64,000 nucleotides of DNA from Candidatus Solibacter sp. (GTDB lineage: Bacteria > Chloroflexota > Dormibacteria > DASZGP01), in assembly GCA_035569605.1 (NCBI GenBank), contig DATMMS010000005.1, positions 355,262-419,261 on the forward strand. The letters run 5' to 3'. Made by a program: the position numbers and the translations under genes. Every line of letters begins with the position of its first letter. The first letter of the stretch is position 1. The notes under the pieces are model-generated. The model ran no database searches. It was given only the letters and a program-made list of their open reading frames with translations, and was not told the origin of the DNA. Below are positions 950 through 36,354 of the stretch, piece after piece.

Positions 950-3661
950 ATGGGTCAGGGTCTGGTTCGGGAGCCGGTGTCGACTACCGCCGATGGCGGC
1001 GACCCGGTGGCCCAATCGACCGAGGCGGAGGCTGGAACCGGCGTCTCATCGCCATCTGCGGCCAAGGCCCAGAGCCCGGTCCTGGAGCAGTACCTGGCCG
1101 CCAAGCGCGAGCATCCGGATGCGGTCCTGCTCTTCCGGCTGGGCGACTTTTTCGAGACCTTCCAGGAGGACGCCGAGGTGGCCCACCAGGTCCTCGGAAT
1201 CACGCTCACCTCGCGGGACTTCGGGCGCGCCGGTCGGCACCCGATGGCCGGGTTTCCTCAGCACGCCGCCGAGGGGTACATAGGCCGCCTGCTGGCAGGC
1301 GGGCACAAGGTAGCGGTCTGCGACCAGGTGGAGGAGGCATCGGCGGCCAAAGGCCTGGTGCGGCGCGAGGTGGTCAGGGTGCTGACGCCGGGGACCATCG
1401 TCGAAGGCGCGCTGCTCGACCCGGCCAGGGAGAATCCGTTGGTCTCGCTGACCTGGGACGACAACCAGATCGGCCTGGCGTTGTTGGAGGTGTCGACCGG
1501 GAGGGTCGAGCTGACCGAATTTCCGGTCAGCCGCCTGGCAGTCCTCGGCGAGGTGCTGGCACGGATCTCGCCATCGGAGTTGCTTGTCGCTGAGGACGCC
1601 GAGACCGCGGTCGCCGCCTTCCGCTCGGGCGCCGGCGAGGCCTGGAACCTGAGCCCGCTGGAGGGTTGGCGATTCGAGGCCACCCGGGGCCGGCAGCGAA
1701 CGCTCGAGGCCCTAGGCGTCGCCAGCCTGGCCGGGTTCGATTGCGACGACCTGGGCCCAGCCCTCGGCGCGCTCGGTGCCGCCTTCGACTACCTGGCTCG
1801 TAACCACCTGCAGCTGCCCAGGGACGTCATCCGCCTGCGCCGCACCAGGGTCGGGGCAACCATGCACCTGGACGCCGCCACCATCGCCAACCTGGAGCTG
1901 GTCGACAGTCTTGGGGGCGGAGGGCGCGGGCTGCTCGATCAACTCGACCGCACCCGATCGCCGATGGGTGCTCGCCGGCTCCGTCAGTGGCTGCTTTCGC
2001 CGCTGATCGATGTGGCCGCCATCGACGACAGGCTGGCGGCCGTCTCGGTGCTGGTGCAGGACGACGGCCTCCGCCAAAGCATCTCGGCGGCACTGAAGCG
2101 CGTGCGCGACCTGGAGCGGCTGACGACCCGCACAGCGCAAGGCCGGGCCGCGCCCCGGGATCTCGGGGCCATACGCGACTCGCTGCCGGCCCTGGCCGAT
2201 TTGTCTCAGACCCTCCTGGCCCAGAGTGGCGACGCGCTGGCGGGACCCCGGGAGGCGATCCGGCCGGAGCCGGATCTGGCGCGGCTGCTGACGTCGGCGC
2301 TCGAGGACTCTCTGCCACCGACGAGCGGTGAGGGCGGGATCATCCGCCCGGGTTACGACGCCCGGCTGGATGAGCTTCGGTCGTCGATCCGGGACGCCCA
2401 GGCGTGGATCGCGGCGCTGGAGCAGCGGGAGCGGGACGCCAGCGGCATCAAGGGCATCAAGGTGGGGTTCAACCGAGTCTTCGGCTACTACCTCGAGATC
2501 AGCAACGCCAACCGTCTGCCTGTGCCCGACAGCTACCAGCGAAAGCAGACCCTGGCCGGCGCCGAGCGCTATATCACGCCCGAGCTGAAAGAAAAAGAGA
2601 GCGTCGTGCTCAACGGCGAGCAGGCGATCTACGCCCGCGAGCGTGAGGTTTTCATCGAGCTCTGCGCCGTGGTGACGCGTTCGGCACCTGGGCTGCTCCG
2701 CTCGGCCGAGGCGATTGGCGACCTCGACGCCCTCCACAGCCTCGCGGCCGCCGCGATGGAGAACGGCTGGAGTCGCCCCGAGGTCTTCGACGGATATGAG
2801 ATCGAGATCCAGGGAGGCCGCCACCCGCTGGTCGAAGCGGCGCTCGGGCCCGGCAACTTCGTGGCCAACGACCTGAGCCTCGACGAGGACCGGAGGGTGA
2901 TGCTCTTGACCGGCCCCAACATGGCCGGGAAAAGCACTTACCTGAGGCAGTGCGGAATCCTGGTGGTCCTGGCCCAGGTGGGCAGTTTCGTGCCCGCAAC
3001 CAGGGCTCAGGTCGGTGTCGTCGATCGCGTGTTCACCCGCGTCGGCGCCCACGACGCCATCGCTAGCGGACTGTCGACCTTCATGGTGGAGATGGTGGAG
3101 ACCGCCAACATCCTGAATCACGCAACCAGCCGGAGCCTGCTCGTCATCGACGAGATCGGTCGTGGCACCAGCACCTACGACGGCATCAGCATCGCCCAGG
3201 CCGTGGTCGAGCACATCCACGACGCTCCCCGGCTCGGCTGCAAGACGCTCTTCGCCACTCATTTCCACGAGCTGACGGCGCTCGCGGAGCGGCTGCCGGC
3301 GCTCCGCAATCACCGCGTCGAGGTCAGCGAGGAAGGGGGCAGGGTCACCTTCCTGCACCGCATCGTTCCGGGCGGCGCCGACCGCAGCTATGGCATCCAC
3401 GTCGCCGAGATCGCCGGGCTTCCCGCCGTGGTGACGGCGAGGGCCAGAGAGCTGCTGACCGGGTTGGAGGCATCCAAGCCCCTGGCCGGCGCCACCGGCG
3501 CCAAGGACCAGCTCAGCCTGCCGATCGAGGTGACTCACCCCTTGGTCACCGAGCTTGCCGGGATCGAGATCGAGAGTCTGAGCCCGCTTGAGGCGCTGAA
3601 CCAGTTGGCACGCCTCAAGTCCCTTGGCCGGGATGCGGACGAGGCTTCCCGCCCATCGTGA
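950..3661 (+). CDS. mutS: DNA mismatch repair protein MutS
   Basis: 903 aa; N-terminal mismatch-binding block (LEQYLAAKREHPDAVLLFRLGDFFETF), Walker A TGPNMAGKSTYLRQ, ABC-type ATPase blocks (DEIGRGTSTYDG). Confidence 0.93.
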   Translation: MGQGLVREPVSTTADGGDPVAQSTEAEAGTGVSSPSAAKAQSPVLEQYLAAKREHPDAVLLFRLGDFFETFQEDAEVAHQVLGITLTSRDFGRAGRHPMAGFPQHAAEGYIGRLLAGGHKVAVCDQVEEASAAKGLVRREVVRVLTPGTIVEGALLDPARENPLVSLTWDDNQIGLALLEVSTGRVELTEFPVSRLAVLGEVLARISPSELLVAEDAETAVAAFRSGAGEAWNLSPLEGWRFEATRGRQRTLEALGVASLAGFDCDDLGPALGALGAAFDYLARNHLQLPRDVIRLRRTRVGATMHLDAATIANLELVDSLGGGGRGLLDQLDRTRSPMGARRLRQWLLSPLIDVAAIDDRLAAVSVLVQDDGLRQSISAALKRVRDLERLTTRTAQGRAAPRDLGAIRDSLPALADLSQTLLAQSGDALAGPREAIRPEPDLARLLTSALEDSLPPTSGEGGIIRPGYDARLDELRSSIRDAQAWIAALEQRERDASGIKGIKVGFNRVFGYYLEISNANRLPVPDSYQRKQTLAGAERYITPELKEKESVVLNGEQAIYAREREVFIELCAVVTRSAPGLLRSAEAIGDLDALHSLAAAAMENGWSRPEVFDGYEIEIQGGRHPLVEAALGPGNFVANDLSLDEDRRVMLLTGPNMAGKSTYLRQCGILVVLAQVGSFVPATRAQVGVVDRVFTRVGAHDAIASGLSTFMVEMVETANILNHATSRSLLVIDEIGRGTSTYDGISIAQAVVEHIHDAPRLGCKTLFATHFHELTALAERLPALRNHRVEVSEEGGRVTFLHRIVPGGADRSYGIHVAEIAGLPAVVTARARELLTGLEASKPLAGATGAKDQLSLPIEVTHPLVTELAGIEIESLSPLEALNQLARLKSLGRDADEASRPS

Positions 3662-3671
3662 TCGCCGCCAG

Positions 3672-5480
3672 TTGAGCATCCAGCGGCTCGACCAGACGGT
3701 CGCAGATGCGATCGCCGCCGGCGAGGTGGTGGAGCGTCCAGCGTCAGTGGTCAAGGAGCTGGTCGAGAACAGCCTCGACGCCGGATCGAAGCGCGTAACC
3801 GTAGAGATCGACGGCGCCGGGGTGGACCGGATCCTTGTCGTCGACGACGGCGCGGGGATCGGCGCCGACGAGCTGGCGCTGGCGCTCACCCGGCACGCGA
3901 CGTCGAAGCTGTCCAGCATCGCGGAGCTGTCGAGGATCGAGTCGCTGGGGTTTCGAGGCGAGGCGCTGGCCAGCATCGCCGCGGTCTCCCGGATCGAGCT
4001 CCGAAGTACGGCGGCGGGAGCCACCGATGGTGCCGCGATCAGAGCAGAGTACGGAGTGACCGGGGAGCCGACGACCGCGCCGCCCGTTCCCGGCACCCGG
4101 GTCGAGGTCAGCGGCCTGTTCGAGAACACGCCGGCCCGGCGGGCGTTCCTGAAGCGGCCGGCGACAGAGGCAGCAGCGGTGGCGAAGGTGCTGCAGGGAC
4201 TCGCGCTCTGCCATCCACACGTCGCTTTCAGTCTTCGCGTCGAGGGACGTCGCAGCCTGGACACCGCGGGCGACGGTGACAGGGAGCGGGTGCTTCGCTC
4301 GGTGCTGAAGGGAACGCCTGACGTGCTCGAGGTGCGTGGCGCCCGCGACGGCGTCTCGGTAAGCGGGATGATTGGTGAGCCGTCGGGAATGCGGCGGAGC
4401 CGGGAGCACCTTTACCTCTCCGTCAACGGTCGCCCCGTGGTCAGCCGGAACCTGGCCTTCGCGGTGGAGCAGGCCTACCGAGGGCTGGCGGGGCCCGGGC
4501 TCTTCCCGGTGGGCGTGCTGGCGCTGACGATGCCTCCGGAGTCCGTGGACGTGAACGTCCATCCAACCAAGCGCGAGGTACTTTTCCGCGCCGCACGCAC
4601 GGTTTTCGCGACGATCCAGGAGAGCTGCTTGCTGGCCCTGAGTCGCAGCGCCGCCTATGCCGGCGGCGGCTTGCTCTCCAGAGGGCCCGAGCTACGGGAG
4701 GACTCTGGCGGGTACGGGTCCGCGGTCGAGGCTCCTGGCGTCGCGATATCTTCCGGCACGCGCTCCGCGCTCGAGATGGTCGCAGTGGCAGCCGAGGTCG
4801 TGGCGGAATCGGATGTCGCCGCGCACCCGGCGCCGGCGTCAGGGCACCACGAGCCGCTGCTCCTGGAGCTGGCGCCGGCGGATCCTGCTACCCGGATCTT
4901 GCGAGGGCCATTCCGCCTTGTGGGCCAGGTCCTCGACAGCTACATCGTCGCCGAGGGACCCAACGGCCTGGTGCTCGTCGACCAGCACGCGGCACACGAG
5001 CGGGTTCTATTCAACCGCCTGGTAGCGGCCCGGGGCTCTGAAGGAACCACCCGTCAACCGATGCTGGTGCCCGCTTTGCTGCACCTGTCGCCGGTCCAGG
5101 CCGCCTGCCTGGAGGACTGCCGCCTCGACCTCGCCGCTGCCGGGCTCGACATCGAGGAATTCGGTGGCGGCGCTGCCCGGCTGGTCGGTCATGACCCGGC
5201 CCTCCCGTCGCGACAGCTCGACCGGATCGCGCTCGATGTCATCGACAGTCTCTTGACTGAGGGTCCCGAGGTGGACCAGGCACGACGGCTTGAGCGGGCC
5301 ACGTACACCGTCGCCTGTCACTCGGCGATCAAGTTCGGCCAGCATCTCAGCCGCGAGGAGATGGAGGCCCTGCTCAGGGCCCTGGAGGTCGCCGACCCCG
5401 GGATCACGTGCCCGCACGGAAGGCCCACCCTCCTGGAGATCACTGACAGCCAGCTCCGCCGCGAGTTCCGCCGCAGCTAG
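3672..5480 (+). CDS. mutL: DNA mismatch repair protein MutL
   Basis: GHKL ATPase N-terminus IAAGEVVERPASVVKELVENSLDAGS; start placed at in-frame TTG 3672 (about 11 aa before IAAGEVV, as in characterised MutL); upstream in-frame ATG at 3624 would overlap mutS; start uncertain. Confidence 0.88.
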   Translation: MSIQRLDQTVADAIAAGEVVERPASVVKELVENSLDAGSKRVTVEIDGAGVDRILVVDDGAGIGADELALALTRHATSKLSSIAELSRIESLGFRGEALASIAAVSRIELRSTAAGATDGAAIRAEYGVTGEPTTAPPVPGTRVEVSGLFENTPARRAFLKRPATEAAAVAKVLQGLALCHPHVAFSLRVEGRRSLDTAGDGDRERVLRSVLKGTPDVLEVRGARDGVSVSGMIGEPSGMRRSREHLYLSVNGRPVVSRNLAFAVEQAYRGLAGPGLFPVGVLALTMPPESVDVNVHPTKREVLFRAARTVFATIQESCLLALSRSAAYAGGGLLSRGPELREDSGGYGSAVEAPGVAISSGTRSALEMVAVAAEVVAESDVAAHPAPASGHHEPLLLELAPADPATRILRGPFRLVGQVLDSYIVAEGPNGLVLVDQHAAHERVLFNRLVAARGSEGTTRQPMLVPALLHLSPVQAACLEDCRLDLAAAGLDIEEFGGGAARLVGHDPALPSRQLDRIALDVIDSLLTEGPEVDQARRLERATYTVACHSAIKFGQHLSREEMEALLRALEVADPGITCPHGRPTLLEITDSQLRREFRRS

Positions 5481-5487
5481 CCGGCCC

Positions 5488-6402
5488 ATGGCGTCCGTCC
5501 CGGTGGCCATCGTCGGACCAACCGCGGTCGGCAAGACCAGGGTTGCGGTGGACCTCTGCCGCAGGATCGGCGGCGAGATCGTCTCGATCGACTCGAGGCA
5601 GGTGTATCGGGGACTCGAGATCTGCAGCAACGCCCCCAGCGCCAAGGACCTGCGCGGGGTTCGGTGCCACCTCGTGGGCGTCATAGAACCGGGCCAGAAG
5701 GTCGACGCCGCTGGGTACGTGGCCATGGCGCGCCCGGTCGTCGAGTCGCTGGCGGTGGAGTCAAAGACCGCGGTGCTGACAGCGGGAACCGGGCTCTACC
5801 TCAAGGCCCTGTTGGGGGGTCTGGACCTCGGCGGCCACCCGGCGGACGGGGTTCTGCGACGAAGCCTCGAGACCCGAGCGCGAAGCGACCTGGGGGCGCT
5901 GGTCGACGAGCTGGCCGAGATGGAGCCTGATACGGCTTCCCGTATCGATCGGGCAAACCCGGTACGCGTCGTCCGCGCCTTGGAGCTCGCGACCATCCGG
6001 CGCGGACAGGCTCTACCGACGACATTGGTCGGGCGCCCGATCGTCGCCGTCAAGATCGGCCTGACCGCACCGCGGGCGCTCCTCTACGAATGGATCGACG
6101 CGCGAGTCGATCACATGCTTACCTCCGGGTGGCTGGCGGAGGTCCGGAGCCTGGCTGACAGTGGGACCACGCTCAGCCGCGCCGCGTTGAGCAGCATCGG
6201 GGTTCGCGAGCTGGTCGAGGTCGCGGCTGGGAGGATGGCGCCGGACGTGGCCCGTGCCGCCATCGCGCAGCGGACGCGGAACTATGCCAAGCGCCAGCTG
6301 ACGTGGTTTCGCGCCGATCCCGAGGTGCGCTGGCTCGATATGACGCGGTTCAGCGGGTCGGATATCGTTGAGGCCATAGTCGAATTGATCGAGAAGAGAT
6401 GA
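5488..6402 (+). CDS. miaA: tRNA dimethylallyltransferase MiaA
   Basis: P-loop N-terminus VAIVGPTAVGKTRVAVDLCRRIGGEIVSIDSRQVYRGLEI; ATG at 5488 is 8 bp after mutL stop; the longer ORF from 5290 is an in-frame extension inside mutL. Confidence 0.9.
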   Translation: MASVPVAIVGPTAVGKTRVAVDLCRRIGGEIVSIDSRQVYRGLEICSNAPSAKDLRGVRCHLVGVIEPGQKVDAAGYVAMARPVVESLAVESKTAVLTAGTGLYLKALLGGLDLGGHPADGVLRRSLETRARSDLGALVDELAEMEPDTASRIDRANPVRVVRALELATIRRGQALPTTLVGRPIVAVKIGLTAPRALLYEWIDARVDHMLTSGWLAEVRSLADSGTTLSRAALSSIGVRELVEVAAGRMAPDVARAAIAQRTRNYAKRQLTWFRADPEVRWLDMTRFSGSDIVEAIVELIEKR

Positions 6403-7229
6403 ATTTTCACAAGATGCAGGGCGCGGCGAACGACTTCGTCGTAGTCGACGGCCGCGCCGAGAGGGCTGTCGACTGGGCGGCCCTGGCCATCAAGGCCTGT
6501 GACCGCCGGCGCGGCGTCGGCGCCGACGGCCTGCTGGCGCTCGAGGACAGCGACGACGCCGATTTCCGGATGCGCTACCACAACGCCGACGGCAGCATCG
6601 GAGAGATGTGCGGCAACGGCATCCGATGCATGGCCAAGTTCGCCCTCGACATCGGCGCCACTAAGGCCGGCAGCCTGGTTTGGGAGACCGGCGCGGGTCG
6701 GATCGCGACCGAGGTCCTGGAGTACAGCGGCGGGGTGGCCATGGTTCGCGCCGACATGGGACCGCCGCGGTTTGCGCCGTCTGAGATCCCCGTGGACGCT
6801 TCCGGGCCGGAGGTGCTGGAAACGCCATTTGCGGTCAACGGCTCGCAGCTGAGGCTCACCTGCGTCAGCATGGGCAATCCCCACGCGGTGACCTTCGTCG
6901 ACAGTGTCACCGAGTTCCCCCTTGAACGGCTCGGTCCCGAGGTGGAGCATCACCCGGCGTTCCCAAACCGCACCAACTTCGAGATCGTCGAGGTGATCGA
7001 CGCCGGCCATCTGAGGATGAGGGTGTGGGAGCGCGGGGTGGGAGAGACGATGGCATGCGGGACCGGGGCCTGCGCTGTTGCCGTCGCCAGCCAGATGGTC
7101 CGACAGACCGCCTCGGACGTGGACATCGAGGTGCCCGGGGGCCGGCTCCGGGTCTCCTGGCGGCCAGGCGAGAACGTTCTCCTCACCGGGCCCGCGGAGA
7201 CAAGCTTCACCGGCGAGCTTCCCTGGTGA
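6399..7229 (+). CDS. dapF: Diaminopimelate epimerase DapF
   Basis: MQGAANDFVVVDGR...MRYHNADGSIGEMCGNGIRC and C-terminal GETMACGTGACA motifs; ATGA overlap with miaA stop. Confidence 0.9.
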   Translation: MNFHKMQGAANDFVVVDGRAERAVDWAALAIKACDRRRGVGADGLLALEDSDDADFRMRYHNADGSIGEMCGNGIRCMAKFALDIGATKAGSLVWETGAGRIATEVLEYSGGVAMVRADMGPPRFAPSEIPVDASGPEVLETPFAVNGSQLRLTCVSMGNPHAVTFVDSVTEFPLERLGPEVEHHPAFPNRTNFEIVEVIDAGHLRMRVWERGVGETMACGTGACAVAVASQMVRQTASDVDIEVPGGRLRVSWRPGENVLLTGPAETSFTGELPW

Positions 7230-8401
7230 CGCAACTCCGCGACGGGCTCGCGGCCCGGCGGATGTCGCGCATCCCCCCTTACCTGTTCGCCGAGATCGAC
7301 AAGAAGGTCGCGGCCAAGCGCGCTGCCGGCGTGGACGTCATCGCCCTCGACATCGGCGATCCCGATACCCCGACGCCCGGGCATATCGTCGACGCTGCCC
7401 GCGACGCCCTGCCTCACGTCGAGAACCAGCGCTACGCCTCTTACTTCGGGATGCCGGCGCTGCGCCAGGCCGTCGCCGGCTGGTACAAGGGCCGCTTCGA
7501 CGTCGACGTCGATCCCGACAGCGAGATCCTGCCGACACTGGGATCGAAAGACGGCATCTCCCACCTGCCGTTCGCGCTGGTTGATCCTGGTGATGTGGTG
7601 CTGGTGCCGAGCCCCGGGTATCCGGTCTACTTCACTGGCACCGTGATGGCGGACGGTGAGCCGCACATTCTGCCTCTGCGGGCCGAAAACGGATGGCTCC
7701 CCGACCTCGAGGCGGTGCCCGCGGCGGTCGTCGAGCGCGCGCGGATCCTGTGGCTGAACTATCCCAACAACCCCACCGCCGCGACCGCCCCCAGGGATTT
7801 CTACGAGAAGGCGCTCACCTTCTGCCGCCGCAACGGCATCGTGCTCTGTCACGACTTCCCGTATTCGGAGGTCACCTTCCGCGGCTATCGGGCGCCCAGC
7901 GTCCTCGAGATCCCGGGCGCCAAGGAGGTCGCGATCGAGTTCCACTCGCTCTCCAAGACCTTCAACATGACCGGGTGGCGAATCGGGATGGCGGTGGGGA
8001 ACGAGGCGGTGCTCCGGCTGCTGGGCCAGGTCAAGACCAACATCGACTCGGGCATCTTTCCGGTGGTGCAGCGCGCCGGCATCGCCGCGCTGGAGGGCCC
8101 TGACAACGACGCCCTCAACGGCATCTACGAGGCCAGGCAGAGCCGAACGCTGGAAGTGCTGCGAGACCTGGGCTGGCGGGACGCGGTGGCTCCTGATGCC
8201 ACCTTTTATCTATGGCTGCCCGTCCCCGATGGCTACACCTCGGTTTCCTTCGCCTCCCACGTGCTCGACCAGGCGGGCGTCAACGTGACCCCCGGCAACG
8301 GTTTCGGGGAGTACGGCGAGGGCTACTTCCGTTTGTCGCTGACGGTGCCCGACCAACGGCTCGATGAGGCCCTCGAACGGCTGCGCAAACTGACCTTCTG
8401 A
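7226..8401 (+). CDS. dapL: Class I PLP aminotransferase, probably LL-diaminopimelate aminotransferase (DapL)
   Basis: RIPPYLFAEIDKK...IALDIGDPDTPTP N-terminal blocks; immediately follows dapF; start either GTG 7226 (GTGA overlap with dapF stop) or ATG 7262; the ORF-track start at 7025 is an extension inside dapF. Confidence 0.7.
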   Translation: MTQLRDGLAARRMSRIPPYLFAEIDKKVAAKRAAGVDVIALDIGDPDTPTPGHIVDAARDALPHVENQRYASYFGMPALRQAVAGWYKGRFDVDVDPDSEILPTLGSKDGISHLPFALVDPGDVVLVPSPGYPVYFTGTVMADGEPHILPLRAENGWLPDLEAVPAAVVERARILWLNYPNNPTAATAPRDFYEKALTFCRRNGIVLCHDFPYSEVTFRGYRAPSVLEIPGAKEVAIEFHSLSKTFNMTGWRIGMAVGNEAVLRLLGQVKTNIDSGIFPVVQRAGIAALEGPDNDALNGIYEARQSRTLEVLRDLGWRDAVAPDATFYLWLPVPDGYTSVSFASHVLDQAGVNVTPGNGFGEYGEGYFRLSLTVPDQRLDEALERLRKLTF

Positions 8402-8440
8402 CCCCGAGGGTAAGCCGGGAGATCCGGCCCAAGAGCTGAC

Positions 8441-9745
8441 ATGCCCGGCCTCGACGAGTTTGTATTCGCGCCCGACCAGGAGCCCGAGCGGGTCTATCTG
8501 ATGGGACTGGGCCTTCCCGGCGTGTCGGGCACCAAGCTCGAGGAGCAGATGGCAGAGCTGGCGGAGCTCGCGGTGACCGCCGGCGCCGAAGTGGTGGGCT
8601 CCGACGTTCAGCACCTTGAGCGAGCCAACCCGACCACGATCTTCGGCAAGGGCAAGGTCGACGAGCTCAAGAGTCTCAAAGGCGACCTCGACTTCACCAC
8701 CGTTATAACCAACGACGAGCTGGCGCCGCGGCAGCAGCGCAACCTCGAGGACGCGATGAATATGAAGGTCCTGGATCGCACCGAGCTGATCCTCGACATC
8801 TTCGCCCGCCACGCCCGATCCCACGAGGGTCGGCTCCAGGTCGAGGCGGCGCAACTGCGCCACCTGCTGCCGCGACTGGCGGGCGGCCGAAACCTCTCCA
8901 GGCTCGGCGGCGGCATCGGTACCCGCGGTCCCGGCGAGCAGAAGCTTGAGGTCGATCGCCGCCGGATCCGCCATCGCATCAGCCAGCTCAAGGCGGAGAT
9001 CGCCAAGCTGGAGAAATCCCGCGGCCTGCACCGCCAGGCGAGACGGCGCGCCGAGGTGCCGGTGGTGGCCGTTGTGGGGTACACCAACTCCGGGAAGAGC
9101 ACGCTGATGAACGCCCTCACCGGGGCCGGCGTGCTGGAGGCCGACCAGCTATTTGCCACCCTCGACCCGACCACGCGCGCGGTTGAGCTGCCGGACGGGC
9201 GTCGAGTGCTGCTGACCGACACCGTCGGGTTCATCCAGAAACTCCCCACCGACCTGGTCGCGGCTTTTCGCGCCACCCTCGAGGAGGTCACCGAGGCCGA
9301 CCTGATCCTGCACGTGCTGGACGCCAGCCACCCCGCGATGCGAGATCACTTCGACGCCACCAACGATGTGCTCGATGACCTCGAAGCGATGGACAAGCCG
9401 CTCGTCCTGGCCTTCAACAAGTGCGACCTGCTGGACGCGGGGACAGTTGCCATGATCCGGCGCCGGGGAGACTGGTCGCCCTATGAGGAGGTGGTGCCGA
9501 TCTCCGCTCGTACCGGCCTCGGGCTTCCCGGGCTGCTGGAGGCCATCGAGCGCCAGACGCGATTGAACCTGGTCGAGCTCGATCTGCTGGTGCCCTATGA
9601 CCACGCGGGCGTGGAGTCAGAGCTGCGCCAGCATGGACGCGTGCTGAAGCTGGACTACGTGGAGGACGGGATCCGGATCGCGGCGGAGGTGCCGGGCAAC
9701 CTGGCGCCGCGGTTCGCCGAATTCGCTAAAACCCCCGCGGGTTGA
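8441..9745 (+). CDS. hflX: GTPase HflX
   Basis: HflX N-domain (LQVEAAQLRHLLPRLAGG...GPGEQKLEVDRRRI) followed by G-domain GYTNSGKSTLMNALTG / DTVGF. Confidence 0.9.
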   Translation: MPGLDEFVFAPDQEPERVYLMGLGLPGVSGTKLEEQMAELAELAVTAGAEVVGSDVQHLERANPTTIFGKGKVDELKSLKGDLDFTTVITNDELAPRQQRNLEDAMNMKVLDRTELILDIFARHARSHEGRLQVEAAQLRHLLPRLAGGRNLSRLGGGIGTRGPGEQKLEVDRRRIRHRISQLKAEIAKLEKSRGLHRQARRRAEVPVVAVVGYTNSGKSTLMNALTGAGVLEADQLFATLDPTTRAVELPDGRRVLLTDTVGFIQKLPTDLVAAFRATLEEVTEADLILHVLDASHPAMRDHFDATNDVLDDLEAMDKPLVLAFNKCDLLDAGTVAMIRRRGDWSPYEEVVPISARTGLGLPGLLEAIERQTRLNLVELDLLVPYDHAGVESELRQHGRVLKLDYVEDGIRIAAEVPGNLAPRFAEFAKTPAG

Positions 9746-10370
9746 CGCGAAGGACCCCGACCACAACGCCTTCGACCGTGAGGTCGGGCACCCGGATCGA
9801 CTGGTAGGCGGGGTTGGCCGGCTCCAGGCGATAGCCGGAGGGCTCGCGGTAGAGGCGCTTGACTGTGGCTTCCGACTCGCCCGTCTCGGGATGCTCCAGC
9901 CGGGCAACCACGACGGCGCCGTTCTTGGCCTCGTGCCCGGGCCGGACGGCCACCAGGTCGCCGTCCATGATGCCTTCGTCGATCATGCTGTCGCCACGCA
10001 CCCGGAGCAGGAAGGAGTCCTCGCCGAACAGCCCACTGGCGACTTCGACGCGATCCTCTACGTTGCTCTCGGCCAGGATCGGCGTACCGGCCGCCACCTG
10101 GCCGATGATCGGCAGGCTGACGATGTTGTTGGCCTGGGTGGTCGCCAGAGGGTCCTTCTCGACCAGCTCGATGGCTCGCGACTTGGACGGGTCACGGTGG
10201 ATGTAGCCCTTGCGCTCGAGGGTGTTGAGGTGGTTCTGGACCGTGGAGCTCGAACTCAGGCCGATAGCCAGCCCGATCTCTCGCACGGTCGGCGGATAAG
10301 CCTTCTCCCGGAGCATCTTCCTGAGGTAGTCCAGGATCTCGCGCTGTCGGTGGGTAAGGACCTCTGGCAT
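9726..10370 (-). CDS. lexA: SOS repressor LexA
   Basis: N-terminal wHTH (LTHRQREILDYLRK...PTVREIGLAIGL) plus S24 peptidase domain (VRGDSMIDEGIMDGDLVAV...KRLY); ATG at 10370; the ORF-track start at 10631 is an unsupported extension; 3' end overlaps hflX convergently by 20 bp. Confidence 0.9.
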   Translation of the reverse strand: MPEVLTHRQREILDYLRKMLREKAYPPTVREIGLAIGLSSSSTVQNHLNTLERKGYIHRDPSKSRAIELVEKDPLATTQANNIVSLPIIGQVAAGTPILAESNVEDRVEVASGLFGEDSFLLRVRGDSMIDEGIMDGDLVAVRPGHEAKNGAVVVARLEHPETGESEATVKRLYREPSGYRLEPANPAYQSIRVPDLTVEGVVVGVLRVNPRGF

Positions 10371-10437
10371 GACGTTCCTCCGCGTTGGCGCAGCGCCGGA
10401 GTGGACGCAGGATGCGCTGGTGGCGGTGCCAACAGTA

Positions 10438-10471
10438 GCACAAATGTTTGCCCAGCGCAAACGCATGTTCG
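10438..10471. promoter_or_regulatory. Candidate LexA operator(s) upstream of lexA, between lexA and divergent ferredoxin gene
   Basis: CAAACGCATGTTCG at 10458-10471 (CGAACATGCGTTTG on lexA sense strand; 13/14 match to CGAAC-N4-GTTCG); weaker palindrome-like GCACAAATGTTTGC at 10438-10451. Confidence 0.45.
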
Positions 10472-10606: not shown

Positions 10607-10864
10607 ATGACCTACGTAATCGCCGAGCCATGCATCGGCACCAAGGACAAGTCCTGCGTCGATGTCTGCCCGGTGGACTGCATCCACGGCGCCGACGAGG
10701 ACCCCCAGCTCTACATCAACCCCGAGGAGTGCATCGACTGCGGAGCGTGCGAGCCCGCCTGCCCGGTGACCGCCATCTTCGTGGACTACGACGTTCCCGA
10801 GCAGTGGAAGGCCTACACCGAGCTGAACGCCGACTACTTCAAGACCGGCCGGACCGCACTCTAA
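10607..10864 (+). CDS. 7Fe ferredoxin (3Fe-4S/4Fe-4S)
   Basis: 85 aa; MTYVIAEPC...CVDVCPVDCI...CIDCGACEPACPV cysteine clusters typical of FdxA/FdxC-type ferredoxins. Confidence 0.9.
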   Translation: MTYVIAEPCIGTKDKSCVDVCPVDCIHGADEDPQLYINPEECIDCGACEPACPVTAIFVDYDVPEQWKAYTELNADYFKTGRTAL

Positions 10865-10945
10865 GTTCGCATTTGAGCTTGCGGGGCGGCAGGCGTCGAT
10901 CATGCTGCCTGGCGCCCGGCGCCCCGTGATCACACAGCCAACGTC

Positions 10946-12361
10946 GTGAGCGACCAGCCCACGAGAATGGAACGGGACTCGATGGGCGAGCTCCCGGTCC
11001 CGGCGGACGCGTACTACGGCGCCCAGACACAGCGTGCGGTCCTCAATTTCCCCATCGGCGGTCTCACCATGCCCCCAGGAATGATCAGGGCTCACGCCCG
11101 GATCAAGGCTGCCGCCGCGAAAGTCAACCACGACCTTGGGCTGCTCGACGGCAAGATCGCGGATGCGATAGTCGCGGCCGCCACGGAGGTCGCCGAGGGC
11201 AAGTTCGACGACCAGTTCCCGATCAACGTCTATCAGACGGGGTCGGGTACTTCGACCAACATGAACCTGAACGAGGTCATCGGCAACCGGGCGACTGAGA
11301 TCCTGGGCGGCGATCGGGGCAGCAAGCTGGTGCACCCCAACGACCACGTCAACATGGGGCAATCCAGCAACGACATCATCCCCACGGCGATCCATATCGC
11401 CGCGCTGATGGCGATCGAGACCGAGCTGATCCCGGCGCTGGAGCACCTCCAGGTCGAGCTGGAGAAGAAGTCGAAGCAGTTCTGGGGCACCATCAAGACC
11501 GGCCGCACCCACCTGCAGGACGCCACCCCGATCCGGCTGGGGCAGGAGTTCCTGGGCTGGGCCGGCCAGATGGAACGCGGCGTCGCCCGGATGCGCCGGG
11601 CGCAGGACGAGCTGCGCGAGGTGGCCCTGGGCGGCACCGCGGTGGGCACCGGGGTGAACACTCACCCGGAGTTCGCGCGGCGGGTCTGCGAGCTGCTCTC
11701 CAGGGACCTGGGGGTGACCATCAGCGAGACCACCAACCATTTCCAGGCCCAGTCCAGCCTCGATAACGTGGTCGCCGCCAGCGGCGCTCTGAGAACCGTC
11801 GCCGTGAGCCTCTACAAGATCGCCAACGACATCCGCTGGCTCGGCTCGGGACCGCGGGCGGGGATCGGCGAGCTGGCGCTGCCGGCGGTCCAGCCTGGCA
11901 GTTCGATCATGCCCGGCAAGGTCAACCCGGTGATCGCGGAGTCGGTGACCATGGTAGTCGCCCAGGTTGTCGGCAACGACGCGACGGTCGCCTTCGCCGG
12001 CGCCGCGGGATCGATCTTCGAGCTCAACCTGATGATGCCGGTGGCGGGACACAACCTGCTCAGCTCGATTCACCTGCTGGCGGCGGCGGCGCGGAACTTC
12101 GCCGACCAGTGTGTCACCGGCATCGAGGACACCGGGCATGGGCCCGAGATGGTGGAGCGAGGCCTGATGCTGGCAACCGCGCTGGCGCCGGCGATCGGCT
12201 ACGACACAGCGGCGGACCTGGCCAAGACCGCCTTCAAGGAAGGCAAGACGATCAGGGAGGTCGCCCGCGAGAAGACGGACCTGACTGAGGCACAGCTGGA
12301 CCATCTGCTCGACCCGGCGGCGATGACCGAGCCCGGGGCCAGCGCCGGAGGCGGCGGCTAG
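10946..12361 (+). CDS. fumC: Class II fumarate hydratase-like lyase (fumarase/aspartase family)
   Basis: 471 aa; GAQTQRAVLNF, GSGTSTNMN, TGRTHLQDATPIRLGQEF, GSSIMPGKVNPV signature blocks; FumC versus aspartate ammonia-lyase not fully resolvable without alignment. Confidence 0.65.
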   Translation: MSDQPTRMERDSMGELPVPADAYYGAQTQRAVLNFPIGGLTMPPGMIRAHARIKAAAAKVNHDLGLLDGKIADAIVAAATEVAEGKFDDQFPINVYQTGSGTSTNMNLNEVIGNRATEILGGDRGSKLVHPNDHVNMGQSSNDIIPTAIHIAALMAIETELIPALEHLQVELEKKSKQFWGTIKTGRTHLQDATPIRLGQEFLGWAGQMERGVARMRRAQDELREVALGGTAVGTGVNTHPEFARRVCELLSRDLGVTISETTNHFQAQSSLDNVVAASGALRTVAVSLYKIANDIRWLGSGPRAGIGELALPAVQPGSSIMPGKVNPVIAESVTMVVAQVVGNDATVAFAGAAGSIFELNLMMPVAGHNLLSSIHLLAAAARNFADQCVTGIEDTGHGPEMVERGLMLATALAPAIGYDTAADLAKTAFKEGKTIREVAREKTDLTEAQLDHLLDPAAMTEPGASAGGGG

Positions 12362-12370
12362 AGCGTACTC

Positions 12371-12414
12371 TTGACACGAACGGCTGTTCGTGCATAATAG
12401 CGAACATGAGTTCG
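12371..12414 (+). promoter_or_regulatory. Sigma70-like promoter with two Cheo-type LexA boxes
   Basis: TTGACA 12371-12376, 16-bp spacer, CATAAT 12393-12398; CGAACGGCTGTTCG 12377-12390 fills the spacer; CGAACATGAGTTCG 12401-12414 overlaps the ATG at 12406. Confidence 0.55.
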
Positions 12415-12738
12415 TATGCCGATGTTCACTCTGGCGTCCGCCGTTCGCGCTACTACGCGCCGCCGGTGCCTCGTCGCAAGGCAGCCCGCATCAAGATCGG
12501 CCGGATCCTGGTGGTCCTCGGCATACTCATGATCGTCTTCATGAAGGCAGCCTATGGGGGAGGGCGGACGGGGACGGAATCCATCACCGTGCAGCCCGGC
12601 GAAACGGTTTGGAGCATCGCCGCCATCCGCTACCCGGACGACGACACCCGCAGCAGGGTGGCGGAAATCGTCGAGCTCAACCATCTCGGCAGCGCGCCAA
12701 TCTACTCCGGCGAGCGGCTGAGCATCCCGGCTCAGTAG
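12406..12738 (+). CDS. Small single-pass membrane protein with C-terminal LysM domain (YneA/ChiZ-like architecture)
   Basis: 110 aa; basic N-terminus, TM helix RILVVLGILMIVFM, LysM block ITVQPGETVWSIAA...SGERLSIP. Confidence 0.8.
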   Translation: MSSYADVHSGVRRSRYYAPPVPRRKAARIKIGRILVVLGILMIVFMKAAYGGGRTGTESITVQPGETVWSIAAIRYPDDDTRSRVAEIVELNHLGSAPIYSGERLSIPAQ

Positions 12739-13059
12739 GCACCGTACCCGGCCGGCCCGAAGGGCCGCTCGCGTAGCGTGGACCGGTCTTTGCCGGGCCC
12801 ACGACCGGTACCGTGACCCTCAAATTTGGTGCAAGAAACGCTTTCTGAGAGCGTCGTGTACGACAGAGCTCTTTGTGTGTATGAGTACCTCAGATTTGTC
12901 TGAGGGGGGCCAGTAGTGTTACAACAGTGTTGCAACTGTCACAGGAAGTACTAGGAACAGGGCAAACGCTCGGTGGGATGGCGAGCTTGCGGGAGGATTG
13001 ACGGGGTGAATCGGCGTACTTGTGGGCGTGCAGGCGCACGCCTTGGAAGGGACAGCTAG

Positions 13060-22154: not shown

Positions 22155-23162
22155 ATGCGGCGTCGCGGTTTACACTGCCGTTCGGTGGTCTCTTCCTCTA
22201 CGCGTCTCCAAGACCAGGTGTCGGCGTTCCTCGAGCACTGCGAGATCGATCGCAACCTCTCGCCGCTGACTGTGCGCATGTACGCGCAGTACCTCGGCGC
22301 GTTCGGCGCATGGGCCGCCGCCGAAGGCGTCACCAGCGCCGAGCAGATCACCCCAGAGGTGGCCCGGCGCTACCGCGTCCACCTCAACCGATACGTGTCG
22401 CCGGTCACCCGTCGCAACCTCTCGCGCGGGACCCAGACCTCGTACCTGGTGGCGCTGAGGTCGCTGCTCCGCTTCCTGAGCCGCTCCGGAGAGGACACCA
22501 TGGCCGCCGATCGTGTCGAGCTTGGCAAGAGCGGCGGTCGCAGCCTCAAGTTTCTCGACTCACACCAGGTGGCGCGCCTGCTGGCGTCGGTCGACGCCAC
22601 CGACGAGCCTGGGATGCGCGATCGGGCCATCCTCGAGCTGCTGTTCTCGACGGGGCTGCGGGTCTCCGAGCTGGTCGGACTGGATCGCGAGCAGGTCAAC
22701 CTGGAGAGCCGCGAGTTCTCGGTCATGGGCAAAGGTCGCAAGGTCCGCGTCGTCTTCGTCAGCGACGAGGCGGCCGACGGGATCCGCTCCTACCTGTCGA
22801 TGCGAAAGGATCGGTTCAAGCCGCTCTTCATCCGCTACCGCGGCCACGCCGCCGAGCAGGAGACCCCCGGCGGGCGCGCCGCCATGGACGGCGAGGCCTG
22901 GCGTCTGAGCGCCCGGTCGGTGGAGCGCATGGTTGCCAAGTACGTGCGGCTGGCGGGGCTGGGCGTCAAGGCCACGCCGCACACGCTGCGCCACAGCTTC
23001 GCCACCGACCTGCTCTTCAACGGCGCCGACCTGCGTTCGGTCCAGGAGATGCTTGGGCACGCCAACCTCGCGACCACCCAGGTGTACACGCACGTCACCA
23101 ACCCGCAGCTGCGGGCCGTGCATCGCGACTTTCACAGCGGCAACCGCCGCCGTGGCGACTAG
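22155..23162 (+). CDS. Tyrosine site-specific recombinase, XerC/XerD type
   Basis: C-terminal catalytic block LRHSFATDLLFNGADLRSVQEMLGHANLATTQVYTHV; N-terminal SAM-like domain; true start may be in-frame GTG at 22185. Confidence 0.85.
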   Translation: MRRRGLHCRSVVSSSTRLQDQVSAFLEHCEIDRNLSPLTVRMYAQYLGAFGAWAAAEGVTSAEQITPEVARRYRVHLNRYVSPVTRRNLSRGTQTSYLVALRSLLRFLSRSGEDTMAADRVELGKSGGRSLKFLDSHQVARLLASVDATDEPGMRDRAILELLFSTGLRVSELVGLDREQVNLESREFSVMGKGRKVRVVFVSDEAADGIRSYLSMRKDRFKPLFIRYRGHAAEQETPGGRAAMDGEAWRLSARSVERMVAKYVRLAGLGVKATPHTLRHSFATDLLFNGADLRSVQEMLGHANLATTQVYTHVTNPQLRAVHRDFHSGNRRRGD

Positions 23163-23985: not shown

Positions 23986-24389
23986 GGCAGCAGCAGCCTG
24001 GTCGCCACGACGACGAGCAGCACGCCGAAGGCCAGCGTCAGCTGGCGGTCCGAGACGCGGTGGGCGATGACGGCGCCAAGCCGTGCGCCGACAACCCCTC
24101 CGATCGCCAGCAGCAAAGCGAGCTCAAACCGCACATTGTGGCCGCCCGCCAAGTAGTACGTGGCCACACCCACGATCGAGATCGGGATGATGGCGAGCAG
24201 CGAATTGGCGACCGCCCGCCTCTGGTTGAGGCCCAGCGCCCAGGTCAAACCTGGCACCAGCACCACTCCCCCACCGACGCCCAACAGGCCGCTCACGAAG
24301 CCGGCCACAGTGCCGACGCCAAGGGCCCGAGCTAAGGGCTTACCAGTAGCGCCAGGCACGGTTTCCGGGAGAGGTTCCAAACATCTCAC
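23982..24389 (-). CDS. TSUP (TauE/SafE, DUF81) family membrane protein, N-terminal-half-like unit
   Basis: 135 aa ORF; SGLLGVGGGVVLVPGL motif; start probably downstream of 24389 because the ORF overlaps the spoIID-like 3' end by 50 bp. Confidence 0.65.
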   Translation of the reverse strand: MRCLEPLPETVPGATGKPLARALGVGTVAGFVSGLLGVGGGVVLVPGLTWALGLNQRRAVANSLLAIIPISIVGVATYYLAGGHNVRFELALLLAIGGVVGARLGAVIAHRVSDRQLTLAFGVLLVVVATRLLLP

Positions 24390-36252: not shown

Positions 36253-36354
36253 GAAACCAGAGCCCCGTCGGGCTGTCAATCGCGCCCTCGGGCGCGCCGA
36301 CATTAGAGTAGCGGATGGGGTTTACTATGCTTCGACCATCGCTAGGAGGGAATC

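What the first reader, a model, noticed from the sequence alone, without database searches (positions are those of the whole stretch)
12371..12738. Candidate SOS-induced cell-division inhibitor: TM+LysM gene behind two perfect Cheo-type LexA boxes
Two perfect GAAC-N4-GTTC palindromes (CGAACGGCTGTTCG 12377-12390 and CGAACATGAGTTCG 12401-12414) sit in the spacer of a TTGACA/CATAAT promoter and across the ATG of a 110-aa gene. The product has a basic N-terminus, one TM helix and a C-terminal LysM domain, the architecture of B. subtilis YneA, M. tuberculosis ChiZ and S. aureus SosA. Unlike those, it is not divergent from lexA but lies 2 kb downstream, separated by ferredoxin and fumarase-like genes. 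lexA itself carries a 13/14 box.
Basis: partly seen in the sequence, partly recalled or inferred. Interest (0 to 1): 0.62.

Follow-up and report, generated by a model that had tools for sequence, protein, structure and literature searches.

The report
LexA-repressed YneA-like division inhibitor gene
A small membrane protein gene in an uncultured soil bacterium (phylum Dormibacterota) sits behind two perfect binding sites for the DNA-damage repressor LexA and is a distant relative of YneA of Bacillus, which stops cell division after DNA damage, so this is a well-supported but expected extension of a known system to a new phylum.

Summary
A near-consensus promoter (TTGACA-16-CATAAT) carries one exact CGAAC-N4-GTTCG box in its spacer. 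A second exact box covers the ATG of a 110-aa ORF, which has a basic N-terminus, one TM helix and a C-terminal LysM domain.

These are the only two GAAC-N4-GTTC sites in the 64 kb. The window comes from a Dormibacterota (AD3) genome. In 83 non-identical related loci, 83 keep at least two boxes upstream of the gene, and 75 keep an in-frame ATG inside the last box.

lexA carries related boxes of its own. In 57 related loci the LysM gene is directly divergent from lexA, so the ferredoxin/fumarase spacer in the window appears to be a derived insertion.

The YneA model of NCBIfam is the best hit for every family member, but below its cutoff. A profile of the family retrieves proteins that pass that cutoff. 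Firmicutes-like relatives show the same operator layout.

Best reading: a LexA-repressed, probably leaderless, YneA-type SOS division inhibitor. Regulation is strongly supported in silico. The division-blocking function is inferred by homology.

Verdict: new member of a known kind, moderate interest.

The parts
12371..12376 (+). -35 hexamer TTGACA of the LysM-gene promoter
   Evidence: Promoter scan gives 11/12 with a 16-nt spacer. TTGAC is invariant and the sixth base is A in 12 of the 13 orthologous promoters.
12377..12390 (.). LexA box 1, CGAACGGCTGTTCG, exact palindromic arms, filling the -35/-10 spacer
   Evidence: In the orthologs the arms are conserved (one substitution, in L019) and the central N4 varies freely.
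12393..12398 (+). -10 hexamer CATAAT
   Evidence: It ends 7 nt before the ATG, so transcription should start at or next to A12406, giving a leaderless mRNA. This start is inferred. No Shine-Dalgarno sequence is present, unlike lexA.
12401..12414 (.). LexA box 2, CGAACATGAGTTCG, spanning the predicted transcription start and codons 1-3 (ATG AGT TCG = M S S)
   Evidence: It is identical in all 13 orthologs. Codon 2 is always AGT, which makes up only 5.4% of Ser codons in 20 window genes.
12406..12738 (+). CDS of the 110-aa bitopic membrane protein (YneA-like)
   Evidence: ORF list. GC by codon position is 0.61/0.50/0.82, against non-coding patterns for the overlapping ORFs. There are 83 full-length homologs of about 110 aa.
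12496..12552 (+). Transmembrane helix (aa 31-49, IGRILVVLGILMIVFMKAA), preceded by an Arg/Lys-rich cytoplasmic N-terminus
   Evidence: Hydropathy and charge count. AlphaFold2 helix 23-51 with pLDDT up to 94.
12583..12729 (+). Extracytoplasmic LysM peptidoglycan-binding domain (aa 60-108), with a family-specific insert RYPDxDxR
   Evidence: Pfam PF01476, E 3.7e-8. PDB profile and Foldseek matches are to LysM domains. The signature is invariant across the distant family members of alignment A2.
9726..10370 (-). lexA (214 aa), the repressor inferred to bind the boxes
   Evidence: LexA_DNA_bind plus Peptidase_S24. TIGR00498 scores 208 bits against a cutoff of 111. The Ala-Gly cleavage site (VAAGTP), Ser (GDSM) and Lys (TVKR) are present in the translation. 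A Shine-Dalgarno sequence GGAGG precedes the ATG.
10458..10471 (-). lexA operator A, CGAACATGCGTTTG (13/14)
   Evidence: A box at the same position is present upstream of lexA in the window and all 14 genome loci.
10437..10450 (-). lexA operator B, degenerate CAAACATTTGTGCT, overlapping an extended -10 (TGcTACTGT)
   Evidence: The position and sequence are conserved in L001-L008. Binding is not tested.
10607..12361 (+). Ferredoxin and class II fumarase/aspartase-like genes that separate lexA from the LysM gene. They are context only, not part of the system.
   Evidence: They are absent from the lexA-LysM intergenic region in 57 related loci.

Best explanation
The gene at 12406-12738 is a LexA-repressed SOS gene of a Dormibacterota bacterium. 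It encodes a YneA-type cell-division inhibitor.

In undamaged cells, LexA dimers occupy two consensus operators. One fills the spacer between -35 and -10. The other covers the transcription start and the first three codons. Together they shut the promoter tightly.

After DNA damage, RecA-stimulated self-cleavage of LexA frees the promoter. The mRNA is made without a leader, so its first bases are the AUG, and it is translated.

The product inserts with its basic N-terminus in the cytoplasm and its LysM domain outside. By analogy with B. subtilis YneA, the TM helix docks onto the septal peptidoglycan synthase (FtsW) and the LysM domain binds peptidoglycan. Septal wall synthesis is blocked until repair is complete and LexA re-accumulates.

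Shown here: the operators, their conservation, the promoter geometry, the protein architecture, the linkage to lexA and the sequence relationship to YneA.

Inferred: LexA binding, damage induction, the leaderless start, and the division block with its target.
For: - **Rarity.** There are two exact boxes within 38 bp, the only two in 64 kb, against about 3e-6 such pairs expected.
- **Promoter overlap.** The promoter is an 11/12 sigma-70 match.
- **Phylogenetic footprint.** 83 of 83 non-identical related loci keep at least two boxes. 71 have at least one exact box. 75 have an in-frame ATG inside the last box. In all fetched loci there are 321 boxes in 420 kb against about 14 expected.
- **Conservation pattern.** The box arms are conserved while the spacer is free. 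The rare AGT codon is fixed inside box 2.
- **Same motif at lexA.** Similar boxes lie upstream of lexA in the window and in all 14 genome loci examined. LexA has an intact cleavage site and catalytic residues.
- **A third target.** The motif also marks a third conserved gene in sister lineages.
- **Linkage to lexA.** The gene is directly divergent from lexA in 57 loci and within about 0.7-3.3 kb in 16 more.
- **Architecture.** TM plus LysM.
- **Relationship to YneA.** The YneA model NF010723 is the top NCBIfam hit for all 19 and all 98 members tested. The other LysM models listed score at most 17 bits for the window's LysM domain. The family profile, searched against 1.84 billion representatives, returns proteins that pass the YneA cutoff (63.9 and 68.4 bits).
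- **Shared operator layout.** Low-GC YneA-like loci have the same layout of box, TTGACA, box, -10, box, and one is divergent from lexA.
- **Mechanism of YneA.** The TM binds FtsW TM7 and the LysM domain must bind peptidoglycan (PMC13396833).
- **Peptidoglycan is made.** The window encodes dapF, dapL, a D-Ala-D-Ala carboxypeptidase, a SpoIID-domain protein and an SLT-domain protein.
Against: - No experiment exists for this phylum, which has no cultured member known to me.
- The window protein scores 38.4 bits on the YneA model, below the 60-bit cutoff. 33.5 of those bits come from the LysM half, and the TM half alone matches nothing. The part that gives YneA its target specificity is therefore not demonstrably conserved.
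- LysM-TM proteins have other roles. A chimera of YneA carrying another protein's LysM or TM domain is inactive, so architecture alone does not guarantee activity.
- Only lexA, this gene and one unknown gene could be shown to carry the boxes. recA, uvrA and similar genes of these genomes could not be scanned.
- The transcription start is predicted, not measured.
Confidence: 0.65

Rival explanations
1. The gene is LexA-regulated, but the protein is not a division inhibitor. It would be an SOS-induced peptidoglycan-binding or wall-remodelling factor, for example one that recruits or regulates a hydrolase as first claimed for mycobacterial ChiZ, or one that stabilises the envelope during filamentation or dormancy.
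For: Similarity to YneA is carried mostly by the LysM domain. ChiZ was reported as a cell wall hydrolase and its LysM domain was said to be dispensable (PMC3989709; PMC6851548). The TM half has no detectable family match.
Against: The protein has no catalytic domain and ends two residues after the LysM domain. Every characterised lexA-linked small TM protein listed in the literature read here is a division inhibitor. The YneA model beats every other LysM model.
Confidence: 0.2
2. The boxes belong to LexA, but the tight double operator mainly serves another purpose, or the gene is constitutively transcribed from elsewhere. The palindromes would be relics of the ancestral lexA-divergent intergenic region, with little regulatory effect today.
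For: The window's clade has been rearranged, with ferredoxin and fumarase genes inserted. The upstream fumarase-like gene ends only 44 nt before the ATG, so read-through transcription is conceivable.
Against: Relics would decay. Instead both boxes are exact or nearly so in all 13 orthologs of the rearranged clade, which are 62-100% identical at protein level, while the flanking DNA is unconserved. The boxes overlap the only consensus promoter. A rare codon is held fixed inside box 2.
Confidence: 0.05
3. The palindromes are bound by a regulator other than LexA, or are chance or structural features.
For: No binding assay exists. Short GC-poor palindromes can be recognised by other helix-turn-helix proteins.
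Against: The motif equals the LexA motif established for Firmicutes and Actinobacteria, with variations of it reported in Chloroflexi (PMC4951493). Similar boxes precede lexA in the window and all 14 genome loci examined. Boxes are about 20-fold enriched over shuffles and concentrated at lexA-linked promoters.
Confidence: 0.03

Closest known systems
YneA of Bacillus subtilis / Listeria (NCBIfam NF010723, 'cell division suppressor protein YneA')
   Same: It is a small bitopic protein with one TM helix and an extracellular LysM domain. Its gene is linked to lexA, divergently in most related loci. It is repressed through CGAAC-N4-GTTCG boxes. The operator layout of box, -35, box, -10, box is also seen in low-GC YneA-like loci. 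The YneA model is the best NCBIfam hit for the whole family, and the family profile retrieves proteins that pass the YneA cutoff.
   Different: The window protein is below the model's 60-bit cutoff (38.4 bits; best Dormibacterota member 50.1). The TM half shows no detectable similarity. The cytoplasmic N-terminus is longer and Arg-rich, at about 30 aa. The start codon lies inside the operator and the mRNA is probably leaderless. In this clade two metabolic genes lie between it and lexA. The host is an uncultured phylum.
ChiZ (Rv2719c) of Mycobacterium tuberculosis
   Same: It is a DNA-damage-induced protein encoded next to, and divergent from, lexA. It has an Arg-rich disordered cytoplasmic N-terminus, one TM helix and a C-terminal LysM domain. 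An actinobacterium-like contig (L097) with a lexA-divergent LysM gene is among the profile hits. From memory and not tested: the miaA-dapF-hflX...lexA neighbourhood also resembles the mycobacterial one.
   Different: ChiZ is said to be longer, at 165 aa by recollection, and to have hydrolase activity and a dispensable LysM domain. No ChiZ sequence was available here for a direct comparison.
SosA (S. aureus), DivS (C. glutamicum), SidA/DidA (Caulobacter)
   Same: All are small, damage-induced, single-TM membrane proteins that block late division steps (SidA, SosA and DivS through the SOS response; DidA is SOS-independent). SosA and DivS are also encoded next to lexA. AlphaFold3 models suggest that several of these inhibitors target FtsW.
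   Different: They have no LysM domain and no sequence similarity.
SulA of E. coli
   Same: It is an SOS-induced division inhibitor under a strong LexA operator.
   Different: It is a cytoplasmic protein that binds FtsZ. Its fold and mechanism are unrelated.

Membership tests
YneA (NCBIfam NF010723 equivalog) | Score at or above the curated 60-bit cutoff of the family model | tested here: not met
   The window protein scores 38.4 bits (E 8.8e-10). The best Dormibacterota member scores 50.1 bits. The model is nevertheless the top hit for 19/19 and 98/98 members.
YneA (NCBIfam NF010723 equivalog) | Architecture: short cytoplasmic N-terminus, a single TM helix and one extracellular LysM domain, about 100 aa in total | tested here: met
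   Pfam LysM at aa 60-108. TM at aa 31-49 with a positive-inside N-terminus. AlphaFold2 model. LysM fold matches in the PDB.
YneA (NCBIfam NF010723 equivalog) | Promoter carries LexA (Cheo-type) operators | tested here: met
   Two exact boxes overlap the promoter and the ATG. They are conserved in 83/83 related loci. LexA binding itself is not testable here.
YneA (NCBIfam NF010723 equivalog) | Gene adjacent to and divergent from lexA | tested here: inconclusive
   In the window lexA is 2 kb away, with two genes in between, though still in divergent orientation. The gene is directly divergent from lexA in 57 related loci. The window's state therefore appears to be a derived version of the defining arrangement.
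YneA (NCBIfam NF010723 equivalog) | Reciprocal sequence relationship: a profile of the query family finds bona fide YneA proteins | tested here: met
   Among the best 150 of 1.84 billion representatives, P0248 (63.9 bits) and P0217 (68.4 bits) pass the YneA cutoff.
YneA (NCBIfam NF010723 equivalog) | Overexpression blocks septal peptidoglycan synthesis through a TM-FtsW contact and LysM-peptidoglycan binding | not testable with these tools
   The mechanism is known only for B. subtilis (PMC13396833).
LysM domain (Pfam PF01476) | Score above the gathering threshold, and the beta-alpha-alpha-beta fold | tested here: met
   33.6 bits against a 20.9-bit cutoff. The predicted secondary structure is E57-61, H68-75, H81-92, E104-108. 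Foldseek and HMM hits are to solved LysM domains.
LexA repressor (TIGR00498) and its Gram-positive-type operator CGAAC-N4-GTTCG | A LexA orthologue is present with an intact self-cleavage site, and is autoregulated by the same motif | tested here: met
   208 bits against a 111-bit cutoff. The AAG, GDSM and VKR motifs are present. Boxes lie upstream of lexA in the window and in 14/14 genome loci. The motif is the one reported for Firmicutes and Actinobacteria, with variations of it in Chloroflexi (PMC4951493).
ChiZ (Rv2719c) | Sequence similarity to M. tuberculosis ChiZ, and damage induction | not tested
The resemblance rests only on architecture and lexA linkage as described in papers and on one actinobacterium-like locus.
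SosA (S. aureus) | 77-aa TM protein without a LysM domain | tested here: not met
   The window protein has a LysM domain. SosA lacks one (PMC6851548).

The most novel reading that the evidence does not exclude
The whole lexA-yneA module would be ancestral to the Bacillati (Terrabacteria), shared by Firmicutes, Actinobacteria and Dormibacterota. The module includes a TM-LysM inhibitor gene divergent from lexA and a promoter with operators upstream of -35, inside the spacer and at the start site.

In Dormibacterota the module has been compacted so that a leaderless start codon lies inside the last operator. The operator half-site therefore dictates the first residues of the protein: MSS from ATG-AGT-TCG, and MY or MF from AT-GTAC or AT-GTTC. 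The same design recurs at another SOS gene of the phylum.
Probability: 0.45. Interest if true: 0.45.

Novelty: new member of a known kind. Interest (0 to 1): 0.35.

Why it matters
This gives the first, purely computational, view of an SOS response in Dormibacterota, a widespread soil phylum without cultured members. No paper in the searched library links the phylum to LexA or the SOS response.

It shows that the Gram-positive type LexA motif and the YneA-type membrane checkpoint extend beyond Firmicutes and Actinobacteria. That supports the view that small membrane inhibitors of septal wall synthesis, not SulA, are the common bacterial solution.

It also provides a clean natural example of a start codon embedded in a repressor operator on a leaderless mRNA.

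It does not open a new kind of biology.

Tried and rejected
- **Terminator.** I looked for an intrinsic terminator after the gene. The scan found none and the fold of 12730-12860 is no better than shuffles (z -0.25). The 3' end of the transcript is therefore undefined.
- **Overlapping ORFs.** The antisense ORF 12358-12684 and the alternative + ORF 12390-12776 were rejected as coding, because their GC3 is 0.59 and 0.53 against 0.82 for the real frame.
- **Upstream ATG.** The 'MANMSSY' N-terminus annotated in some databases comes from an ATG that overlaps the -10. That ATG is absent in the window (ATA), so the ATG inside the box is the conserved start.
- **Other near-boxes.** The other 1-mismatch boxes in the window (45675, 56246) lie inside long ORFs and are taken as chance.
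- **Taxonomy of distant hits.** The listing of cluster members returned only unnamed metagenome entries.
- **Unavailable data.** DNA for the 24-kb contig of P0172 was not available, although its gene table shows lexA 0.7 kb away. The afdb50 fold library was not available.
- **Literature.** Searches for the mycobacterial gene numbers and for Dormibacter*/LexA/SOS found nothing.
- **Regulon scan.** A whole-genome regulon scan (recA, uvrA and others) could not be done, because only the window and about 10-kb loci are readable.

Full report
**1. What is in the sequence**

The region reads, from 12371: TTGACA | CGAACGGCTGTTCG | tg | CATAAT | ag | CGAAC ATG AGTTCG | TAT GCC ....

- The two CGAAC-N4-GTTCG palindromes are exact.
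- They are the only GAAC-N4-GTTC sites in the 64-kb window.
- The next best sites have one mismatch. One is upstream of lexA and two are inside long ORFs.
- Under a mononucleotide model, 0.066 exact 14-mers are expected per window, and about 3e-6 pairs within 40 nt.
- The promoter scan scores TTGACA-16-CATAAT at 11/12.
- Box 1 fills the spacer. Box 2 begins 2 nt after the -10 and contains the ATG of the ORF 12406-12738.

The -10 ends 7 nt before the ATG and there is no Shine-Dalgarno sequence. lexA, in contrast, has GGAGG. The transcript is therefore most likely leaderless and begins at the A of the start codon. This is an inference from geometry, not a measurement.

**2. The product**

- The frame has coding-type GC by codon position (0.61/0.50/0.82). 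The two overlapping ORFs do not.
- Pfam finds a LysM domain at aa 60-108.
- The strongest hydrophobic stretch is aa 31-49.
- The first 30 residues carry 8 positive and 1 negative charge. This predicts an N-in, C-out topology.
- AlphaFold2 with a 19-sequence alignment gives mean pLDDT 80, a helix at 23-51 and a beta-alpha-alpha-beta domain at 57-108.
- The predicted domain matches solved LysM domains by sequence profile and by Foldseek.
- The LysM domain has a family-specific insert, RYPDxDxR, that is invariant across the distant family members compared in alignment A2.

**3. Whose genome**

The identical protein and 82 homologs of about 110 aa (54-100% identity) come from metagenome-assembled genomes. 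Most are labelled Candidatus Dormibacteraeota or Dormibacteria, and a few Chloroflexota. The GTDB species-representative collection gave 14 loci with the same labels. The phylum sits in kingdom Bacillati.

The window has 67% GC. It encodes mutS, mutL, miaA, dapF, dapL, hflX and lexA, then ferredoxin, a class II fumarase/aspartase-like lyase, the LysM gene and a branched-chain amino-acid ABC transporter.

**4. Conservation of the operators**

*The closest orthologs.* In 13 orthologs (62-100% protein identity, same gene order), the promoter alignment shows no conservation upstream of -35. It shows near-invariant TTGACA, conserved box arms (one substitution in L019), a freely varying N4 in box 1, a semi-conserved -10 and an invariant box 2. 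Codon 2 is always AGT, which makes up 5.4% of Ser codons in 20 window genes. Meanwhile 37 of 64 amino-acid-invariant codons in the rest of the gene vary synonymously. This points to selection on the DNA itself.

*All related loci.* A metagenome scan added 80 more loci. Of 83 non-identical loci with at least 150 nt of upstream sequence:
- all 83 have two or more boxes with at most one mismatch;
- 71 have at least one exact box;
- 75 have an in-frame ATG inside the last box.

In all fetched loci together there are 321 such boxes in 420 kb, against about 14 in shuffles. They cluster at three places: the LysM promoter, the lexA promoter, and a third conserved gene described in section 10.

**5. 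lexA and the arrangement**

- The window's LexA is a clear orthologue (TIGR00498, 208 bits). It has the Ala-Gly cleavage site and the Ser and Lys catalytic residues.
- Its promoter has CGAACATGCGTTTG at 10458-10471.
- A second, degenerate box, CAAACATTTGTGCT, lies at 10437-10450 and overlaps an extended -10.
- Both are conserved in position in the orthologs.

In 57 related loci the LysM gene is directly divergent from lexA (less than 400 nt between starts). These loci typically have three boxes in the shared region: one on the lexA side of -35, one in the spacer, and one over the ATG.

The window's arrangement is confined to one clade, whereas the directly divergent arrangement is the commonest and is also seen in Firmicutes- and actinobacterium-like loci, so the window's state appears to be the derived one. 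There the ferredoxin and fumarase-like genes sit between lexA and the LysM gene, and each side has kept its own operators.

**6. Relationship to YneA**

- Against NCBIfam, the best hit of the window protein is NF010723, 'cell division suppressor protein YneA'. The match has E 8.8e-10 and 38.4 bits against a 60-bit cutoff, and aligns aa 35-109 to model positions 10-86 of 87.
- All 19 members of the first alignment hit this model, and essentially nothing else.
- A control shows that the LysM half alone gives 33.5 bits, while the other LysM models listed for it give 17 bits or less. The N-terminal and TM half alone gives nothing.
- A more distant Dormibacterota member reaches 50.1 bits.

A profile of the family was searched against 1.84 billion representative proteins. 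It finds 268 proteins at E <= 1e-10. Among the best 150 there are 97 small proteins with one matched stretch, in most cases spanning the TM and LysM regions. All of them hit the YneA model. Two low-GC-type sequences pass its cutoff at 63.9 and 68.4 bits.

Two further low-GC YneA-like loci (58.5 and 57.3 bits) have the same operator layout: box, TTGACA, box, -10, box. One of them is divergent from lexA. An actinobacterium-like contig also has a family member divergent from lexA.

The window gene is therefore best described as a distant homolog of YneA that does not meet the curated equivalog threshold.

**7. Mechanism**

*Known for B. subtilis YneA.* The TM helix binds TM7 of FtsW and localises the protein to the septum. 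The LysM domain must bind peptidoglycan. Septal wall synthesis, not Z-ring or divisome assembly, is blocked (PMC13396833).

*Known for the wider group.* Inhibitors encoded next to lexA in Gram-positive bacteria are small single-TM proteins, most with a LysM domain (PMC6851548; PMC3989709). The CGAAC-N4-GTTCG motif is the LexA site of Firmicutes and Actinobacteria, with variations of it reported in Chloroflexi (PMC4951493).

*Proposed here.* LexA occupies both operators and excludes RNA polymerase, at the spacer site and again at the start site. Two consensus sites on a strong promoter imply very tight repression, with release only when LexA is substantially depleted. This suits a toxic product.

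lexA itself has weaker sites, so it would recover first. The induced protein would then halt septal wall synthesis until it is turned over.

Each step after 'the operators exist and are conserved' is inference.

**8. Rivals**

- **A non-division role for an SOS-induced peptidoglycan-binding protein.** This cannot be excluded, because the TM half, which gives YneA its target specificity, has no detectable similarity. Domain-swapped YneA is also inactive.
- **Relic or non-functional boxes.** This is contradicted by their exact conservation in the rearranged clade.
- **A regulator other than LexA.** This is unlikely, given that similar boxes lie upstream of lexA in every locus examined.

**9. Novelty and score**

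No paper in the searched library mentions Dormibacter* together with LexA or the SOS response. The kind of system, a lexA-linked, LexA-repressed TM-LysM inhibitor, is well known. A specialist would expect it in a Bacillati phylum.

What is new is the phylum, the derived split arrangement, and the start codon embedded in the operator on a probable leaderless mRNA. That last design makes the operator half-site encode the first residues. These are MSS in the window's clade. In others they are MY or MF from AT-GTAC or AT-GTTC, and such N-termini are frequent among the profile hits.

I rate it a new member of a known kind, with interest 0.35.

**10. Seen in passing**

In 33 sister-clade loci a 121-aa helical ORF (MRTL...) lies on the opposite strand about 1-2 kb downstream of the LysM gene. 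It has the same design. Its ATG sits inside a box (CGAAC-ATGC-GTACG) with an exact box 28 nt upstream, or there is a single exact box just upstream. It has no Pfam match and no homolog in the window.

Noticed in passing
L087:3868-4230 (-), L064:4266-4628 (-), and 31 further loci. Not present in the window.: A third conserved LexA-box gene in sister Dormibacterota lineages. It is a 121-aa all-helical ORF (MRTLATQVRLRRLIR...). Its ATG lies inside a box (CGAAC-ATGC-GTACG) with an exact CGAAC-N4-GTTCG 28 nt upstream, or it has a single exact box just upstream. It has no Pfam family and no tblastn match in the window.
   Followed up: partly
window 950-10370: The gene order is mutS, mutL, miaA (5290-6402), dapF, dapL, hflX, then lexA on the opposite strand. 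From memory, the miaA-dapF-hflX...lexA-chiZ neighbourhood of M. tuberculosis (Rv2727c-Rv2719c) is similar, which would support old synteny of the lexA/LysM pair. A literature search for those gene numbers found nothing.
   Followed up: partly
window 12406-12738 (protein P0001): NCBI labels the identical protein 'Candidatus Solibacter sp.' (Acidobacteriota), and one related locus (L011) is labelled 'Candidatus Acidiferrales'. Nearly all other relatives, and the synteny, are Dormibacterota, so these MAGs are probably mis-binned or misclassified.
   Followed up: no
window 10946-12361: The 'fumarase-like' gene passes the NCBIfam aspartate ammonia-lyase subfamily cutoff (561 against 510 bits). It falls below the fumC equivalog cutoff (594 against 665 bits). 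Its substrate is therefore ambiguous.
   Followed up: no
L100:100-200 and L101:915-1000: Low-GC (31% and 46%) YneA-like loci from metagenomes show the same three-operator layout as Dormibacterota: box, TTGACA, box, -10, box. L101 is divergent from lexA.
   Followed up: partly
proteins P0123-P0266 (best hits of the family profile): About a third of the small TM-LysM relatives begin with MY or MF, and several with MSS. This is what an ATG placed inside a GTAC/GTTC or AGTTCG operator half-site would encode. It suggests that the start-codon-in-operator design is widespread in the family.
   Followed up: partly
L006:4606-6001: In one ortholog about 1.4 kb of extra sequence lies between the fumarase-like gene and the LysM promoter. 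This shows further rearrangement at this junction. Its content was not examined.
   Followed up: no
window 45675-45688 and 56246-56259: Two one-mismatch boxes (CGAACGGCTGGTCG and CGAACCGTCGATCG) lie inside long ORFs, an adenylate-cyclase/AAA ATPase protein and a BNR-repeat protein. They are taken as chance matches.
   Followed up: partly
window 22155-23162, 24340-26226 (-), 35173-36303 (-), 48682-49740: These ORFs encode a XerC/D-type tyrosine recombinase, a SpoIID-domain protein, a D-Ala-D-Ala carboxypeptidase and an SLT-domain transglycosylase. They show that the organism makes and remodels peptidoglycan. No boxes lie near them.
   Followed up: no
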